IMG/VR virus record: IMGVR_UViG_3300045988_003641
Span: 1-64,000 of that record
Direction: 5' to 3' (one strand)
From: a virus
Taxonomy: Duplodnaviria > Heunggongvirae > Uroviricota > Caudoviricetes
DNA: 64,000 bases
How positions within the stretch are numbered: the stretch's first letter is position 1; each line of letters begins with the position of its first letter. Positions 19,040-22,020 of this stretch are shown piece after piece. Both the position numbers and the translations under genes were made by a program. The notes beneath the pieces were generated by a model, which worked only from the letters and a program-made list of their open reading frames with translations, was not told the DNA's origin and did no database searches.

Positions 19040-19112
19040 CAGAAGACCAATTACAGCAAACTTAATCTACTCATCTGACACGAAATCGGACAAAGAAGAT
19101 ATTTGGTCTGGT
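19040..19112 (+). ncRNA. structured non-tRNA element, family copy A (CAGAAGACC...ACAGCAA...GGTCTGG)
   Basis: Conserved 5' and 3' arms able to pair; between tRNA genes. Confidence 0.3.
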
Positions 19113-19122
19113 CATTGAGAAT

Positions 19123-19199
19123 TGCGGGTATAGAGAAAGGGCGTCTCACATGTCTCATTAGCATGGTATCGGCAGGTTCGACTCCTGCACCCGCCTCCA
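19123..19199 (+). tRNA. tRNA with anticodon CAU (Met or Ile2)
   Basis: Anticodon stem CATGT/GCATG, loop CTCATTA, T-loop TTCGACT, CCA encoded. Confidence 0.55.
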
Positions 19200-19205
19200 A
19201 TTTTG

Positions 19206-19265
19206 CAGAAGACCGTATTCAGCAACAAAATACTTTTTGCGGATAAAAGAAAAAACACGGTCTGG
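19206..19265 (+). ncRNA. structured non-tRNA element, family copy A'
   Basis: GCAGAAGACCG...TTCAGCAA...CGGTCTGGC. Confidence 0.3.
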
Positions 19266-19276
19266 CAATGTATTAA

Positions 19277-19353
19277 GGTTAGGAAGCACATAAGGTATGT
19301 GCGGTCGCCTGTTAAGCGAATGGCACAGGGTTCGAATCCCTGACTAACCGCCA
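19277..19353 (+). tRNA. tRNA-Asn (anticodon GUU)
   Basis: Acceptor GGTTAGG/ACTAACC, loop CTGTTAA, T-loop TTCGAAT. Confidence 0.6.
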
Positions 19354-19362
19354 AATTTAAAT

Positions 19363-19450
19363 GTGTCGTTATCCCGTAGATGGTAGCGGTGGGGACTGTA
19401 AATCCCTTGTCATTGAGACTCGGTAGGTTCGACTCCTACACGACACACCA
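19363..19450 (+). tRNA. tRNA-Tyr (anticodon GUA), class II with long variable arm
   Basis: 88 nt; acceptor GTGTCGT/ACGACAC; loop CTGTAAA. Confidence 0.6.
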
Positions 19451-19455
19451 ATAAA

Positions 19456-19533
19456 GGTTATGTAGTTTAATTTGGTTAAAATACTCCCCTGTCACGGGAG
19501 ATGATGATGGTTCAAATCCCTTCGTAACCGCCA
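19456..19533 (+). tRNA. tRNA-Asp (anticodon GUC)
   Basis: Anticodon stem CTCCC/GGGAG, loop CTGTCAC. Confidence 0.6.
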
Positions 19534-19594
19534 ATTTTGAGAGGGCTATTTAGCCCCTCCCTTAAAGAGTTCTTACGAGTATTCTTTAAAGGAG

Positions 19595-19668
19595 CAGAAG
19601 ACCAAATACAGCAAGAATGTATGAAATTTCAAGCCAATTTAATTTTGAAAATTTAAAACTTGGTCTGG
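19595..19668 (+). ncRNA. structured non-tRNA element, family copy B
   Basis: CAGAAGACCA...ACAGCAA...GGTCTGG. Confidence 0.3.
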
Positions 19669-19681
19669 CTCAACAAATTTA

Positions 19682-19813
19682 CAGAAGACCGTTTACAGCA
19701 AAACTTAAACAATCTATTTCTCCGGTAAAGAAAAGGCGAAGGTTCGATTCCTTCACTCGGCAGATGTCGAGTTGGTGTAATGGTAGCACTTAAGATGATA
19801 AACAACGGTCTGG
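19682..19813 (+). ncRNA. structured element, family copy C, with embedded tRNA-like module (T-arm then acceptor-like helix then D-loop-like segment, permuted order); candidate Y-RNA-like RNA
   Basis: CAGAAGACCG...GGTCTGG frame around GAAGGTTCGATTCCTTC T-arm (19736-19757) and GTCGAGTTGGTGTAATGGTAGCAC. Confidence 0.35.
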
Positions 19814-19819
19814 TAATTA

Positions 19820-19953
19820 TCTTTGTAGATAAGTTATTAAGCTTACCTGTGAGTATGCGACCACAAAGGGTGAAAGGGTAAATTCTAGATTTAAACCCAA
19901 AAAGGCACATCGCTACAGACCTTAAGCAAGTCTGGGTAGCTTATCTACAAAGA
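19820..19953 (+). ncRNA. structured element closed by perfect 14-bp terminal stem
   Basis: TCTTTGTAGATAAG (19820-19833) pairs with CTTATCTACAAAGA (19940-19953); internal hairpin CAGACC/GGTCTG. Confidence 0.3.
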
Positions 19954-19962
19954 TAATTTAAT

Positions 19963-20038
19963 GGAAGTGTAGCAGAATGGTGATGCGGCAGACTTTTAAT
20001 CTGACAGGCGATGGGTTCGAATCCCTCCACTTCTACCA
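19963..20038 (+). tRNA. tRNA-Lys (anticodon UUU)
   Basis: Acceptor GGAAGTG/CACTTCT, loop CTTTTAA. Confidence 0.55.
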
Positions 20039-20043
20039 AAAAT

Positions 20044-20120
20044 GGTTCAGTCGCAGATAAGGTAATGCAAGGGTTTCATAAGCCCTATGAATGTGGGTTC
20101 GATTCCCACCTGAACCTCCA
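20044..20120 (+). tRNA. tRNA with anticodon CAU (Met or Ile2)
   Basis: Acceptor GGTTCAG/CTGAACC, stem AGGGT/GCCCT, loop TTCATAA, T-loop TTCGATT. Confidence 0.6.
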
Positions 20121-20121
20121 A

Positions 20122-20197
20122 GCTGGTATAGTTAAGAAGGTTATAACACTCCCCTGATAAGGGAACATCGGTGGTTCGATTCCACCTACCAGTACCA
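20122..20197 (+). tRNA. tRNA-Ile (anticodon GAU)
   Basis: Acceptor GCTGGTA/TACCAGT, loop CTGATAA. Confidence 0.55.
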
Positions 20198-20212
20198 ATT
20201 TCAATAAAGTTG

Positions 20213-20241
20213 TTGACATTGAGATGTGACTACTTTATAGT
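20213..20241 (+). promoter_or_regulatory. sigma70-like promoter inside tRNA array
   Basis: TTGACA-17-TATAGT. Confidence 0.6.
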
Positions 20242-20446
20242 AACCTTAGTTTTCGTTGCGTAGCGTCTATTTTGCAAATTTAAAATAAATGCAAACGACA
20301 ATGTTTTTCTGGCAGTAGCTTGATAGGCTAAACACCAGTGAGGTCTTCCAATCCCTCATCAAAGAATTTGGCGTACTCGCCCACGGTATGATTAATAAGG
20401 TGGGCATCTTTAAGGGCTTTCTAAGAGAGTCTTTAAAGATAATTAC

Positions 20447-20528
20447 GGGGCGTATCTCAGCGGTCTTCTAAACCGCCGTTAACCGAGTAAGTGGAGTATG
20501 CGGGTTCGAGTCCTGCCGCCTCGACCAA
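20447..20528 (+). tRNA. atypical tRNA-like gene (hairpin loop CTTCTAA suggests UCU; non-canonical arm layout)
   Basis: Acceptor CGGGGCG/CGCCTCG, T-arm GCGGG-TTCGAGT-CCTGC, CCA encoded; hairpin GCGGT-CTTCTAA-ACCGC sits too close to 5' end. Confidence 0.35.
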
Positions 20529-20677
20529 TTTAGTTAGCAGATTACTTAGACGACCTAAGCGGGTCTTCCTGTAAGGAGGTGGTCTGTATCTCATGTTTTC
20601 CAGAACATGTAAATAATCTGAGAAGGGGCTTTACAGTGTTGAGATAACAGGGTAAGCTTCGAATTATAGTTTTAATA

Positions 20678-20748
20678 GGGGTGAGCTATGGCAGCAATAG
20701 AGTCTCCAAAATTCTTGATTAGAGTTCGAATCTCTACACCCCTGCCAG
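20678..20748 (+). tRNA. tRNA-Trp (anticodon CCA), compact D-arm
   Basis: Acceptor AGGGGTG/CACCCCT, loop CTCCAAA, T-loop TTCGAAT; 71 nt. Confidence 0.5.
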
Positions 20749-20761
20749 AACAGGTGCTTGT

Positions 20762-21166
20762 ATGAAACTTTGTAGAAAATGTTCTCAAGAAAAGCCTTTA
20801 AGCTGCTTTCATAAAAGAGGTAATGGCTATCAGTCTGCTTGTAAAGATTGTAAAGCTAAGTACTCAGCAAAGAGATACAAAGAAGACCCTACTTATAAAG
20901 CAAAAAGAAAAGTTAGGGCAAAATATGACAAAAAGAGGAACAGAGAGTTCCTTAGTAGATATAAAAAGTTTTGCAAATGCAGAATATGTGGCGAATCTGA
21001 GCCAGTAGCTTTGGATTTTCATCACTTAGACCCTAAAGAGAAAGATTTTGCTCCAAGCAATCTTAAAACTTACTCTAGAGGCACTATTAAGCGTGAAGTC
21101 CGTAAGTGTGTTGTGCTTTGTTCAAACTGTCATAGGAAAGTTCATGCAGGACTGTTAAGTATTTAA
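20762..21166 (+). CDS. HNH homing endonuclease inserted in tRNA array
   Basis: DFHHLDP...CSNCHRKVH HNH motif plus N-terminal CxxC...CxxC. Confidence 0.8.
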   Translation: MKLCRKCSQEKPLSCFHKRGNGYQSACKDCKAKYSAKRYKEDPTYKAKRKVRAKYDKKRNREFLSRYKKFCKCRICGESEPVALDFHHLDPKEKDFAPSNLKTYSRGTIKREVRKCVVLCSNCHRKVHAGLLSI

Positions 21167-21179
21167 CAATCTTATTAGG

Positions 21180-21267
21180 GGTAGGTAGCGGCTAATGGTA
21201 GCCAAACTGTCTTGAAAACAGTTGCCACTGTAGAGATACGGTGAGGGTTCGACTCCTTTACTTACCG
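21180..21267 (+). tRNA. tRNA-Ser (anticodon UGA), class II; CCA not encoded
   Basis: 88 nt; anticodon stem ACTGT/ACAGT, loop CTTGAAA. Confidence 0.55.
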
Positions 21268-21523
21268 CCTAATAAGATTTACACCGTCCATGCTTGCTCG
21301 CATTTTCGGTTTATCCCTCGTGTATTGTCGTACACTGATAAAGCACCTAGTAGGTGTCACGGAGAAGAGATAATATCAAGCTCTCCAAAGGTTCTAGTCA
21401 CCGGATTAAACAAGACTATGCAAAGACCAAATTAGGTCTTTTTAGAGGGCTTCTAAGGTTATTACAGCTTGTTGTGGAACCTTGTTGCTTAGGTTCTTAG
21501 AAGTTCTCTAAAAAGATTTAATG

Positions 21524-21600
21524 GGAGATTGACGGTAATTGGTAAACCTACCATCCTTAGAAGTTGGTGTTTGAGGGTTCGAATCCCTTGTCTCCTACCA
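21524..21600 (+). tRNA. tRNA with Leu-type anticodon UAG but short variable region
   Basis: Acceptor GGGAGAT/GTCTCCT, loop CTTAGAA, discriminator A, CCA encoded. Confidence 0.45.
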
Positions 21601-21607
21601 AATTAAT

Positions 21608-21683
21608 GCAGGTGTAGCAAAATGGTTATGCGGCTGACTCTTAATCAGTAAGACGATGGGTTCAATTCCCTCCACCTGTACCA
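21608..21683 (+). tRNA. tRNA-Lys (anticodon CUU)
   Basis: Acceptor GCAGGTG/CACCTGT, stem GCTGA/TCAGT, loop CTCTTAA. Confidence 0.55.
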
Positions 21684-21689
21684 GACATT

Positions 21690-21765
21690 GGGGATGTAGT
21701 TTACATGGTTAAAACATAAGTTTTGCAAACTTAAGTACAGGGTTCAATTCCCTGCCTCTCCACCA
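21690..21765 (+). tRNA. tRNA-Ala (anticodon UGC)
   Basis: Anticodon stem TAAGT/ACTTA, loop TTTGCAA; G3-U70 wobble present. Confidence 0.65.
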
Positions 21766-21771
21766 ATTAGT

Positions 21772-21846
21772 GCATCCATAGTTTAAACGGGAAAATTACA
21801 GTCTTCCAAACTGAGGTTGAGGGTTCGATTCCCTCTGGATGCTCCA
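21772..21846 (+). tRNA. tRNA-Gly (anticodon UCC)
   Basis: Acceptor GCATCCA/TGGATGC, loop CTTCCAA, T-loop TTCGATT. Confidence 0.6.
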
Positions 21847-21853
21847 AATTAAT

Positions 21854-21930
21854 GCTGCTTTCGTATAATTGGCTATTACACATCCCTTGTAAGGATGGAA
21901 ATGCGGGTTCGAGTCCTGTGAGCAGCACCA
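21854..21930 (+). tRNA. tRNA-Thr (anticodon UGU)
   Basis: Anticodon stem CATCC/GGATG, loop CTTGTAA. Confidence 0.6.
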
Positions 21931-21933
21931 ATT

Positions 21934-22020
21934 CAGAGGTCAAGTGAAAGGCCGCTGGTGTCAACTGAAGACCGTAACAAATTCCACGGAGTTGAGTTAG
22001 CGGCACAACTTCAGACCTCT
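21934..22020 (+). ncRNA. structured non-tRNA element, family copy D
   Basis: CAGAGGTC...GACCTCTG terminal stem; internal GAAGACCGTAACAAA and GCCGCT/AGCGGC hairpin. Confidence 0.3.

What the first reader, a model, noticed from the sequence alone, without database searches (positions are those of the whole stretch)
19040..22020. Family of structured non-tRNA elements interspersed among tRNA genes (candidate Y-RNA-like sRNAs)
At least five elements (19040-19112, 19206-19265, 19595-19668, 19682-19813, 21934-22020) share a frame of 5' CAGAAGACC(A/G) followed by ACAGCAA and a 3' (C/T)GGTCTGG that can pair with the 5' arm. A sixth element (19820-19953) is closed by a perfect 14-bp stem. They fill space between tRNAs that are otherwise packed a few nt apart, and none contains an ORF. 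Together with the adjacent Ro60-like gene they are candidate Y-RNA/YrlA-like RNAs.
Basis: partly seen in the sequence, partly recalled or inferred. Interest (0 to 1): 0.8.

Follow-up and report, generated by a model that had tools for sequence, protein, structure and literature searches.

The report
Phage Ro60-like protein's partner small RNAs
Four small structured RNAs hidden in the tRNA array of a Felix-O1-like phage belong to a large, undescribed RNA family that always sits beside a divergent Ro60-like protein gene, so they are probably that protein's "Y RNAs", and they look strikingly like the orphan Class I RNAs of social amoebae.

Summary
The window is a Felixounavirus. Four of the six reported elements are a real family: E1 19040-19113, E2 19206-19267, E3 19595-19670, E4 19682-19815. 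Each has 5' AAG, a 6-7 bp terminal stem, U(A/U)CAGCAA, a variable middle, an A-rich tract, the 3' stem half, then CUGG.

They lie 335-1110 nt downstream, same strand, of ORF 17290-18705. Pfam calls it DUF2828+DUF7788. Its AlphaFold model matches only Ro60 structures at full length.

The same RNA architecture, with freely covarying stems, flanks DUF2828 homologues (32-45% identity) in IMG/VR phages and bacterial MAG contigs. A covariance model built only from those distant elements returns E1-E4 as the top four hits in the window (32.7-21.7 bits; next 14.3).

E4 carries a V-T-AS-D tRNA-like module, as in bacterial YrlA. Rfam YrlA and Y_RNA models do not match, and the GNCGAA motif is absent. 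No Rfam family covers these RNAs. The only recurrent sub-threshold match is Dictyostelium Class I RNA, which shares termini, stem and CUUACAGCAA motif.

The fifth and sixth elements are real structured RNAs but not family members.

Verdict: a new Y-RNA-like family for a divergent Ro60 clade. Expression and protein binding are untested.

The parts
17290..18705 (+). Ro60-like protein gene (471 aa; Pfam DUF2828 + DUF7788/vWA)
   Evidence: Pfam hits DUF7788 (2.8e-43) and DUF2828 (1.5e-29), with no TROVE hit. The AlphaFold model has pLDDT 91. The top 11 Foldseek PDB hits are all Ro60/Rsr at full length, TM 0.47-0.64, E 6e-9 to 5e-7. The MIDAS residues D279, S281 and S283 are invariant in 99 homologues.
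18724..18844 (+). Two sigma-70-like promoter matches upstream of the tRNA/sRNA array
   Evidence: TTGACA-17-TAATAT at 18724-18752 and TTGACA-18-TAAAGT at 18815-18844, each 10 of 12. These are consensus matches only.
19040..19113 (+). E1, short-type family RNA (outer helix extends to 19038-19114)
   Evidence: R2 covariance model 29.5 bits, E 2.5e-4 over the whole window. Rfam RF01414 17.5 bits. Conserved in Felixounavirus loci.
19206..19267 (+). E2, short-type family RNA (outer helix from 19204)
   Evidence: R2 32.7 bits, E 4.5e-5. RF01414 24.0 bits. The outer helix covaries between relatives, UGC/GCA versus UAC/GUA.
19595..19670 (+). E3, short-type family RNA (outer helix from 19593)
   Evidence: R2 21.7 bits, E 0.017. 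Present in 27 of 27 close relatives.
19682..19815 (+). E4, long-type family RNA with a tRNA-like module: V hairpin 19717-19733, T arm 19738-19754, AS stem-loop 19755-19772, D arm 19774-19790
   Evidence: R2 29.0 bits, E 3.4e-4. T and D arms are invariant. The AS stem has 3 pairs with compensatory changes in 13 orthologues. The Rfam tRNA model matches partially at 19705-19755, 22 bits.
19816..19958 (+). E6, separate conserved structured RNA of about 143 nt; not a family member
   Evidence: MFE -47 kcal/mol, z -5.3. RNAalifold reports 6 pairs with compensatory changes, five of them in the closing stem. The inner hairpin CAGAC-CUUAAGCAA-GUCUG becomes AAACC-CUUUAGCAA-GGUUU in diverged relatives. 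Not hit by R2.
21934..22020 (+). E5, highly conserved 87-nt hairpin RNA; relation to the family unproven
   Evidence: MFE -34.5 kcal/mol, z -4.6. 92-99% identical across relatives, so there is no covariation to test. The inner CAACU-GAAGA-CCGU-AACAAA...CGG-AGUUG resembles the E-type 5' end. Not hit by R2.

Best explanation
E1-E4 are small non-coding RNAs that serve as the Y-RNA-like partners of the phage's divergent Ro60-like protein (ORF 17290-18705).

**Proposed mechanism.**
1. They are transcribed with the tRNA array. This is inferred from the promoter-like sites at 18724 and 18815.
2. They are released when the flanking tRNAs are processed. This is inferred from the 5-10 nt spacers.
3. The shared module is the protein-binding site. 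It consists of 5' AAG, the 6-7 bp terminal stem, the single-stranded U(A/U)CAGCAA, the A-rich tract and the 3' CUG(G/U). This is inferred by analogy with Ro60 binding the terminal stem of Y RNAs.
4. The variable middle is the effector or tether module. In E4 it is a tRNA mimic with T arm, stem-loop and D arm, like bacterial YrlA. E1-E3 are short forms, like YrlB.
5. The RNP probably acts on host or phage RNA metabolism or counter-defence. The likely orthologue in Felixounavirus Bas63 (gp130) was reported to counter the Ppl defence system.

**What is shown.** The RNA family, its covariation, its exclusive same-strand linkage to the protein family, and the protein's Ro60 fold.

**What is not shown.** Expression, RNA ends, protein binding and function.
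For: **Protein.** The AlphaFold model (pLDDT 91) matches only Ro60/Rsr structures at full length.

**Linkage.**
- In 80 IMG/VR loci around homologues, stem+CAGCAA elements number 113 on the gene strand, 45 on the other strand and about 24 in shuffles.
- In 80 independent GTDB genome loci, model R1 gives 28 hits at E<=1. All are on the gene strand and most lie close to the gene.
- A further search gave 46 of 46 hits on the gene strand.

**Structure.** All 7 stem pairs covary and 99% of cells are paired (on a model-fitted alignment).

**Membership.** R2 contains no Felixounavirus sequence. It ranks E2, E1, E4 and E3 as the top four hits of the whole window with filters off (32.7, 29.5, 29.0, 21.7 bits; next 14.3). 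It also finds 96 + strand hits and one - strand hit in 26 Felixounavirus loci.

**tRNA mimicry.** The E4 AS stem covaries while the T and D arms are invariant. Distant members L118 and L066 carry the same T-AS-D module.

**Function lead.** PMC11482910 reports that Bas63 gp130, which is Ro60-like and sits directly upstream of the tRNAs, counters Ppl. That paper speculated that some 'tRNAs' are Y RNAs. Bas63 is a Felixounavirus.
Against: - There are no transcript or binding data.
- Rfam YrlA and Y_RNA models give nothing at E<=10 on the elements.
- The Ro-binding GNCGAA/CGAA motif of known bacterial and phage Y RNAs is absent (PMC4201824, PMC12135203).
- The protein is not a Pfam TROVE member.
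- The stem-pair statistics come from sets selected or fitted for the stem.
- Orthology of the window ORF with Bas63 gp130 is inferred, not checked by alignment.
- Many Clostridia-type homologue loci (32-35% identity) show no canonical element. The linkage is therefore not universal, or the motif diverges there.
Confidence: 0.75

Rival explanations
1. The elements are structured RNAs that work without the Ro60-like protein. They might be processing or stability punctuation for the tRNA precursor, or decoys for a host RNA-binding factor or nuclease. Co-location with the gene would then reflect only shared residence in phage 'RNA islands'.
For: They are embedded between tRNAs with 5-10 nt spacers. 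Other hairpin families also punctuate the array. tRNAs and tmRNAs often lie near DUF2828 genes in distant loci.
Against: Many distant loci carry the elements directly beside the gene with no tRNA array, for example L028, L114 and L131. All 28 and all 46 model hits are on the gene strand and cluster close to the gene. That is hard to explain without a functional link.
Confidence: 0.1
2. The elements are cis-acting binding sites in the gene's own transcript (5' or 3' UTR) through which the protein autoregulates. They would not be free trans-acting small RNAs.
For: In distant loci they lie immediately upstream or downstream of the ORF on the same strand.
Against: In the window they are separated from the ORF by two promoter-like sites and by tRNAs, and there are four copies. 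Members carry elaborate tRNA-like modules typical of stand-alone Y RNAs. Tandem arrays of up to four occur, as in L131.
Confidence: 0.07
3. They are DNA-level repeats (recombination or homing-endonuclease targets, or protein-binding sites) or decayed tRNA pseudogenes with no RNA function.
For: An HNH endonuclease ORF lies in the array at 20762-21166. E4 contains tRNA-derived arms.
Against: Compensatory changes, including G-U pairs, and strict strand polarity point to selection on an RNA fold. The frame is conserved across proteins only 32-45% identical, while the stem sequence is free to vary. The T and D arms are invariant rather than decaying.
Confidence: 0.04

Closest known systems
Bacterial and phage Y RNAs: YrlA/YrlB (Rfam RF02553; Chen et al. 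2014, PMC4201824) and Thermus phage phiLo Yrl1/Yrl2 (PMC12135203)
   Same: - Encoded within about 1 kb of a Ro60-fold protein gene on the same strand, in several copies.
- 5' and 3' ends pair into a terminal stem next to a conserved motif.
- One copy (E4) has the V-T-AS-D tRNA-like module with invariant T and D arms and a covarying AS stem.
- The other copies are short, like YrlB.
   Different: - The conserved motif is U(A/U)CAGCAA, not GNCGAA(N)G.
- There is no Rfam YrlA or Y_RNA match at E<=10.
- The partner protein is DUF2828+DUF7788, not Pfam TROVE (12-17% identity to solved Ro60s).
- The elements are embedded in a tRNA array.
Dictyostelid Class I RNAs (Rfam RF01414; Kjellin et al. 2021, PMC7919456)
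   Same: - 5' AAG, a 6-7 bp terminal stem that covaries, then (C)UUACAGCAA directly after the 5' half-stem.
- A variable middle, an A-rich tract before the 3' half-stem, and a 3' CUG(U).
- Size of about 50-65 nt for the short forms.
- RF01414 is the only Rfam family that repeatedly hits these phage RNAs (17.5-30.7 bits).
- Some amoebal members also carry T-arm-like hairpins.
   Different: - All scores are below the gathering cut-off of 41.5.
- The linker between stem and motif is one nucleotide shorter.
- The CC-rich tract before the 3' stem is lacking.
- Class I RNAs are eukaryotic genes with a DUSE promoter and were reported as absent outside Dictyostelia.
- Their only confirmed binder is the RRM protein Rnp1A/CIBP.
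- A Dictyostelia-only model I built did not significantly hit E1-E4.
T4-type phage stable RNAs in tRNA clusters (species 1/2, rnaC/rnaD; from my own knowledge)
   Same: Small stable non-tRNA RNAs co-encoded and co-processed within a phage tRNA gene cluster.
   Different: No sequence relation was tested or is known. No linked Ro60-like protein is known.

Membership tests
YrlA / bacterial Y RNA (Rfam RF02553) | Match to the Rfam covariance model at the gathering score (69 bits) | tested here: not met
   No YrlA hit on 19040-19815 even at E<=10. The only YrlA hit in the region, 23373-23495 at 17.3 bits, spans a tRNA-His/tRNA-Phe junction, which is a known artefact type.
YrlA / bacterial Y RNA (Rfam RF02553) | GNCGAA(N0-1)G motif near the 5' end (presumed Ro60 contact; PMC4201824) | tested here: not met
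   The 5' ends read CAGAAGACC(A/G)NNU(A/U)CAGCAA, with no CGAA.
YrlA / bacterial Y RNA (Rfam RF02553) | tRNA-like domain in the order V, T arm, acceptor-like stem-loop, D arm | tested here: met
   Met for E4 only: V 19717-19733, T 19738-19754 (loop UUCGAUU), AS 19755-19772 (3 compensatory pairs), D 19774-19790 (loop AAUGGUA). E1-E3 lack it, as YrlB does.
YrlA / bacterial Y RNA (Rfam RF02553) | Encoded within 4 kb of a Ro60 orthologue on the same strand | tested here: met
   The elements start 335-977 nt after the stop of ORF 17290-18705 on the + strand. The ORF has the Ro60 fold but is not a Pfam TROVE protein.
YrlA / bacterial Y RNA (Rfam RF02553) | Physically bound by Ro60/Rsr | not testable with these tools
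   Needs RIP, EMSA or similar.
Dictyostelid Class I RNA (Rfam RF01414) | Match at the gathering score (41.5 bits) | tested here: not met
   E2 24.0 bits and E1 17.5 bits. Distant phage members score 30.7, 28.8, 24.7 and 23.4 bits, all on predicted elements.
Dictyostelid Class I RNA (Rfam RF01414) | Short terminal stem whose structure, not sequence, is conserved | tested here: met
   7-bp stem with all 7 pairs covarying across the phage/MAG family. Present in E1-E4.
Dictyostelid Class I RNA (Rfam RF01414) | 11-nt motif CCUUACAGCAA next to the 5' half-stem (near-invariant U3, C6, C9, A10, A11) | tested here: inconclusive
   E1 (AAUUACAGCAA) and E4 (GUUUACAGCAA) keep 5 of 5 near-invariant positions. 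E2 (GUAUUCAGCAA) and E3 (AAAUACAGCAA) keep 4 of 5. The linker is 1 nt shorter than in D. discoideum.
Dictyostelid Class I RNA (Rfam RF01414) | Conserved termini, 5' AAG and 3' CUGU | tested here: inconclusive
   In the DNA the window elements read AAG...CUGG, and most distant members read AAG...CUGU. The real RNA ends are unknown.
Dictyostelid Class I RNA (Rfam RF01414) | Eukaryotic gene with an upstream DUSE promoter; restricted to Dictyostelia | tested here: not met
   The sequence is a Felixounavirus genome.
DUF2828-linked RNA family defined here (models R1, R2) | Significant match to a model trained only on elements next to distant DUF2828 genes | tested here: met
   E2, E1, E4 and E3 are the top four hits in 64 kb on both strands with filters off: 32.7, 29.5, 29.0 and 21.7 bits, against 14.3 for the next hit. 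E5 and E6 are not hit.
Ro60 / TROVE protein family (for ORF 17290-18705) | Sequence membership in Pfam TROVE, or a sequence match to a solved Ro60 | tested here: not met
   No TROVE hit at E<=0.01. phmmer against PDB sequences finds nothing at E<=1.
Ro60 / TROVE protein family (for ORF 17290-18705) | Alpha-helical repeat ring plus C-terminal vWA domain with a MIDAS motif | tested here: met
   Full-length Foldseek matches to 9kop, 9l5y, 9nfa, 1yvr, 2i91 and 2nvo (prob 1.00, TM 0.47-0.64). The DxSxS residues D279, S281 and S283 are invariant.

The most novel reading that the evidence does not exclude
The phage RNAs and the Class I RNAs of dictyostelid social amoebae may be one RNA class: the cognate ligands of DUF2828-type Ro60-like proteins. 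Class I RNAs are abundant, developmentally regulated and of unknown mechanism, and were reported to exist in no other organism.

This reading predicts that dictyostelids encode a DUF2828+vWA protein that binds Class I RNAs. The best candidate is DDB_G0281243. It is the unknown-function protein pulled down with Class I RNA DdR-21, and orthologues were identified in all Dictyostelia genomes examined (bioRxiv 10.1101/2020.04.05.026054).

If so, a second Ro-Y-like RNP system with its own recognition code (stem + UUACAGCAA) would span phages, bacteria and eukaryotes.
Probability: 0.3. Interest if true: 0.92.

Novelty: new variant of a known kind. Interest (0 to 1): 0.8.

Why it matters
Ro60-Y RNA particles are studied in autoimmunity, RNA quality control and, recently, phage biology. 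The known bacterial and phage examples all use canonical TROVE proteins and CGAA-motif Y RNAs.

This finding does four things:
- It gives a partner RNA, and hence a testable function, to the large DUF2828 'unknown function' protein family. That family has more than 2,400 90%-identity clusters in the protein database, more than 580 IMG/VR hits and 167 GTDB genome hits.
- It defines a new RNA family that is absent from Rfam.
- It explains the non-tRNA fillers in Felix-O1-like tRNA arrays, which are currently annotated as hypothetical ORFs.
- It supplies the missing RNA component for the reported anti-Ppl activity of Bas63 gp130.

If the Class I RNA link is real, a 20-year-old orphan eukaryotic ncRNA class would gain a mechanistic hypothesis that can be checked at once by a domain search of DDB_G0281243.

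Tried and rejected
- **Rfam on the window and on 19 distant loci.** No family reaches gathering on any element. YrlA and Y_RNA are absent.
- **Model R1** (trimmed termini from distant phages). On the window it gave only E2 at 16.2 bits (E 0.18), because long loops are penalised. I replaced it with R2, built on full-length hits.
- **Model R3** (trimmed, Dictyostelia only). It gave 8 weak hits in MAG loci, all on the + strand, and about five fall on elements found by the other scans. It gave nothing significant on E1-E4. The reciprocal test is therefore inconclusive.
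- **Single-sequence AlphaFold.** Useless (pLDDT 45). I redid it with 99 homologues.
- **AlphaFold-database fold search.** I wanted it to look for eukaryotic (Dictyostelium) homologues, but the library was unavailable.
- **Papers.** I could not retrieve Avesson 2011 or Burroughs & Aravind 2016.
- **DDB_G0281243 and DUF2828 motifs.** Not found in the truncated Dictyostelium proteome files in the Kjellin supplement, of which only about 400,000 characters per file are held.
- **Literature on DUF2828 / UCP015417.** Only plant gene lists.
- **Alternative slipped register** for the stem (CAGA/UCUG + AGA bulge + CCG/CGG). I did not adopt it, because distant members have a continuous 7-bp stem.
- **Bas63 accession.** My guess, MZ501111, turned out to be Bas51. 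Orthology with gp130 therefore remains an inference.

Full report
**Where the window comes from.** The region 17000-24500 is about 96% identical to Escherichia phage wV8 and to more than 200 other Felix-O1-like phages (genus Felixounavirus, Ounavirinae). ARAGORN finds 26 tRNA genes between 18871 and 24437, all on the + strand. Directly upstream lies ORF 17290-18705 (471 aa), which RefSeq labels 'RNA-binding protein' in wV8.

**The observation.** AGAAGACCR occurs exactly at 19041, 19207, 19596 and 19683, with only one other exact + strand copy in 64 kb. Each copy is matched downstream by an exact YGGTCTGG at 19104, 19258, 19661 and 19806.
- All four copies have (U/A)CAGCAA three to four nucleotides after the 5' arm.
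- The arms form a 7-bp helix.
- A further 3-bp outer helix differs between copies (GAC/GUC, UGC/GCA, AGC/GCU, UAC/GUA) and covaries between orthologues of E2.
- Single-sequence folding energies are unremarkable (z -1.4 to -2.1). The case therefore rests on comparison, not thermodynamics.

The fifth element (21934-22020) lacks the frame. The sixth (19820-19953) has the reported stem but a different architecture. Mechanical ORFs overlap the elements, and two of them are annotated as hypothetical proteins in wV8. One-nucleotide indels among close relatives break the two ORFs that cross E4.

**The neighbouring protein.** Pfam assigns DUF2828 (1.5e-29) and DUF7788 (2.8e-43), with a weak vWA match and no TROVE match. 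Sequence search of the PDB finds nothing. An AlphaFold model built with 99 homologues is confident (pLDDT 91, pTM 0.90).
- Its eleven best Foldseek hits in the PDB are all Ro60 proteins aligned over the full length: Thermus phage phiLo Ro60, several further Ro60 entries including the Ro autoantigen structures 1yvr, 1yvp and 2i91, and Deinococcus Rsr. E-values run from 6e-9 to 5e-7 and TM-scores from 0.47 to 0.64.
- All later hits are isolated vWA domains or weaker partial matches.
- The MIDAS residues D279, S281 and S283 are invariant.

The protein is therefore a highly divergent Ro60-like ring plus vWA protein.

The family is large. It has more than 2,400 90%-identity clusters among the candidates scored, more than 580 hits in IMG/VR and 167 hits in GTDB species genomes.

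**The RNA family beyond this phage.** In locus L028 the protein is 40% identical. Two elements follow the gene at once: AAGACCC-CCACAGCAA...GGGUCUUG and AAGAU-GGGAACAGCAA...AUCUUG. Each contains a T-arm-like hairpin.

A simple scan for CAGCAA preceded by a stem arm whose partner lies downstream gave these results:
- In 80 distant IMG/VR loci it found 113 candidates on the gene strand, 45 on the other strand and about 24 in shuffled sequence.
- The true elements share aA-G-(6 more stem bases)-NUA-CAGCAA-...-A-rich-stem-CUG-UU.
- The stem sequence is completely different from locus to locus: AGGAUCG/CGAUCCU, UUGGUUCC/GGAACCAG, AGAUUAGGU/ACCUAAUCU, UGAGCAC/GUGCUCA.

Model R1 was built from 50 of these elements, with termini only and no window sequence. 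I ran it on 80 independent loci from bacterial and archaeal MAG contigs.
- It gave 28 hits at E<=1, every one on the gene strand. Most lie within a few hundred bases of the gene.
- All seven stem pairs show compensatory changes (on a model-fitted alignment).
- A second pass gave 46 of 46 hits on the gene strand.

**Membership of the window elements.** Model R2 was built from those 46 full-length distant hits. I ran it over the entire window on both strands without filters.
- It returned E2 (32.7 bits, E 4.5e-5), E1 (29.5), E4 (29.0) and E3 (21.7, E 0.017) as the top four hits. The next hit scored 14.3 bits, E 0.9.
- E5 and E6 were not detected.
- In 26 Felixounavirus loci R2 finds 96 + strand hits at four conserved positions and a single weak - strand hit.

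**The tRNA-like module.** E4 contains, in order:
- a small hairpin, V;
- a T arm, GAAGG-UUCGAUU-CCUUC;
- a stem-loop, AS;
- a D arm, GGUGU-AAUGGUA-GCACU.

Across 13 distinct orthologues the T and D arms do not change. The AS stem changes by compensation: ACUCGGC/GUCGAGU, ACACGUU/GGCGUGU, ACCCUUC/GAAGGGU. This is the arrangement and conservation pattern described for YrlA (PMC4201824).

Distant family members carry the same T-AS-D module, namely L118 at 5553-5664 and 5889-5997, and L066. L150 instead has the normal tRNA order D-anticodon-T. E1-E3 have only short variable regions, like YrlB.

**Comparison with known families.** Rfam 15 reports only tRNAs at gathering thresholds in the window, and only tRNAs and tmRNAs in 13 distant loci. 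Neither Y_RNA nor YrlA matches the elements at E<=10, and the GNCGAA motif is absent. They work like Y RNAs but are not members of the described Y RNA families.

The only family that recurs below threshold is RF01414, Dictyostelium Class I RNA.
- The scores are E2 24.0 bits, E1 17.5, and four distant elements at 30.7, 28.8, 24.7 and 23.4.
- Every RF01414 hit falls on a predicted element on the gene strand.
- The reported E-values (0.066-6.8) already include correction for 4,227 families.

Published Class I features are a 5' AAG, a 6-bp terminal stem conserved in structure only, the motif CCUUACAGCAA beside the 5' half-stem, a variable middle, a 3' CUGU and a length of 42-65 nt (PMC7919456). 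These coincide with the phage frame.

The published sequences also show the A-rich tract before the 3' stem. Compare DdR-21 ...CAUAAGAAAAACUACC-GUCAAC-UG with E2 ...AUAAAAGAAAAAACA-CGGUCU-GG. Two amoebal members have T-arm-like hairpins.

Against the link:
- The scores are below the gathering cut-off.
- The linker is one base shorter.
- My own trimmed Dictyostelia-only model was too weak to recover E1-E4.

The Class I authors found no such RNA outside Dictyostelia. Their pull-down with DdR-21 recovered GuaB, NdkC, the RRM protein CIBP and an unknown-function protein, DDB_G0281243. I could not determine whether DDB_G0281243 is a DUF2828 protein.

**Mechanism.** The best-supported model has four steps.
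- The RNAs are made as part of the tRNA precursor. Promoter-like sites lie at 18724, 18815 and 20213, and a terminator-like site at 24600.
- They are freed by tRNA end-processing.
- The Ro60-like protein binds them through the terminal stem and the adjacent single-stranded UACAGCAA.
- Their variable modules recruit or mimic other RNAs.

Only the comparative linkage and the folds are shown. The rest is inference from Ro60-Y RNA biology.

A functional lead is the PhageMaP report that gp130 of Felixounavirus Bas63 counters the Ppl defence system. That protein is Ro60-like and lies directly upstream of the tRNA genes. The authors guessed that some 'tRNAs' might be Y RNAs (PMC11482910; taxonomy). 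The present work locates those RNAs between the tRNAs, not among them.

**The other two reported elements.** E6 is a conserved structured RNA of about 143 nt.
- Several pairs of its long closing helix change by compensation between two Felixounavirus subgroups.
- An inner hairpin also changes by compensation, CAGAC-CUUAAGCAA-GUCUG versus AAACC-CUUUAGCAA-GGUUU.
- A central GAUUCUAGAUU is conserved.

Its loop resembles the family motif minus one base, a variant also seen in DdR-57. This is only a resemblance.

E5 folds well (z -4.6) and is 92-99% identical across relatives whose flanks diverge more, so no covariation test is possible.

**Verdict.** The Y-RNA-like interpretation is supported by strong comparative evidence but remains untested experimentally. 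The family is new to Rfam and is tied to a divergent Ro60 clade. The possible identity with dictyostelid Class I RNAs is the most novel open reading.

Noticed in passing
window 19816-19958: E6 is a conserved structured RNA of about 143 nt with an 18-23 bp closing helix. Several closing-helix pairs and an inner hairpin (loop CUUAAGCAA / CUUUAGCAA) change by compensation. A central GAUUCUAGAUU is conserved. It has no Rfam match and its function is unknown.
   Followed up: partly
window 21934-22020: E5 is an 87-nt hairpin, 92-99% identical across relatives whose flanks diverge more. Its inner part, UGAAGACCGUAACAAA...CGG, resembles the 5' end of E1-E4.
   Followed up: partly
window 20445-20524: A tRNA-like RNA that ARAGORN misses (Rfam tRNA 31.7 bits). 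It has a 7-bp acceptor stem plus ACCA, a T arm, and an anticodon-like arm GCGGU-CUUCUAA-ACCGC (UCU) that covaries in L014. It has no D arm and a 23-nt variable region. It is present in only 12 of 27 relatives. It contains CGGUCUUCU, which is complementary to the 5' arm AGAAGACCG of E2 and E4.
   Followed up: partly
window 19560-19592, 20406-20440, 21436-21517, 23325-23348: A second repeated hairpin family built on UCUUUAAAG / CUUAGAAG arms. Two copies share GTTCTTACGAG exactly. The z-scores range from -1.3 to -5.6. These may be processing sites within the tRNA array.
   Followed up: partly
window 20213-20445; L108 8696-9187; L059 8605-9054: The best sigma-70-like promoter match in the array (TTGACA-17-TATAGT, 11 of 12) precedes a 200-nt non-coding stretch. 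That stretch has weak tmRNA (16 bits) and permuted-tmRNA (29 bits) matches. Genuine tmRNA genes (85 and 75 bits) lie near the DUF2828 gene in two distant phage loci.
   Followed up: no
window 20762-21166: A 134-aa ORF with weak Pfam HNH matches, annotated as HNH endonuclease in wV8, is inserted in the tRNA array. It may be a homing element.
   Followed up: no
L041 6471-6721, L082 6754-6936, L096 6758-6940: Long-type family members carry a conserved 180-250-nt insert (…GGAGCGCAAGC…GAGACCCGGAGA…CCUGGUUCAAAACUAAAA…). It is neither tRNA-like nor matched by Rfam, so it is an unknown effector module.
   Followed up: no
L150 3184-3297 versus L118 5553-5664 and L066 7154-7288: Within one RNA family the tRNA-like module occurs in two topologies. 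One is T-AS-D (permuted, as in YrlA). The other is D-anticodon-T (normal tRNA order, with the family stem in the acceptor position).
   Followed up: no
PMC7919456 supplement file 48 (asu_can_20, ppa_can_99): Two published dictyostelid Class I RNAs contain T-arm-like hairpins (CCUAGGUUCGAUCCCUAGC and UUGGUUCGAAUCCGA). I did not see this remarked on in the parts of the paper I read. It parallels the T-arm modules of the phage RNAs.
   Followed up: no
window 19653-19910 (-) and 21767-22006 (-): These mechanical ORFs correspond to wV8 gp048 and gp053, annotated as hypothetical proteins in RefSeq. They lie antisense over the RNA elements and tRNAs. For the first, a 1-nt indel in relatives breaks the frame. 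Both are probably mis-annotations carried across Felixounavirus genomes.
   Followed up: partly
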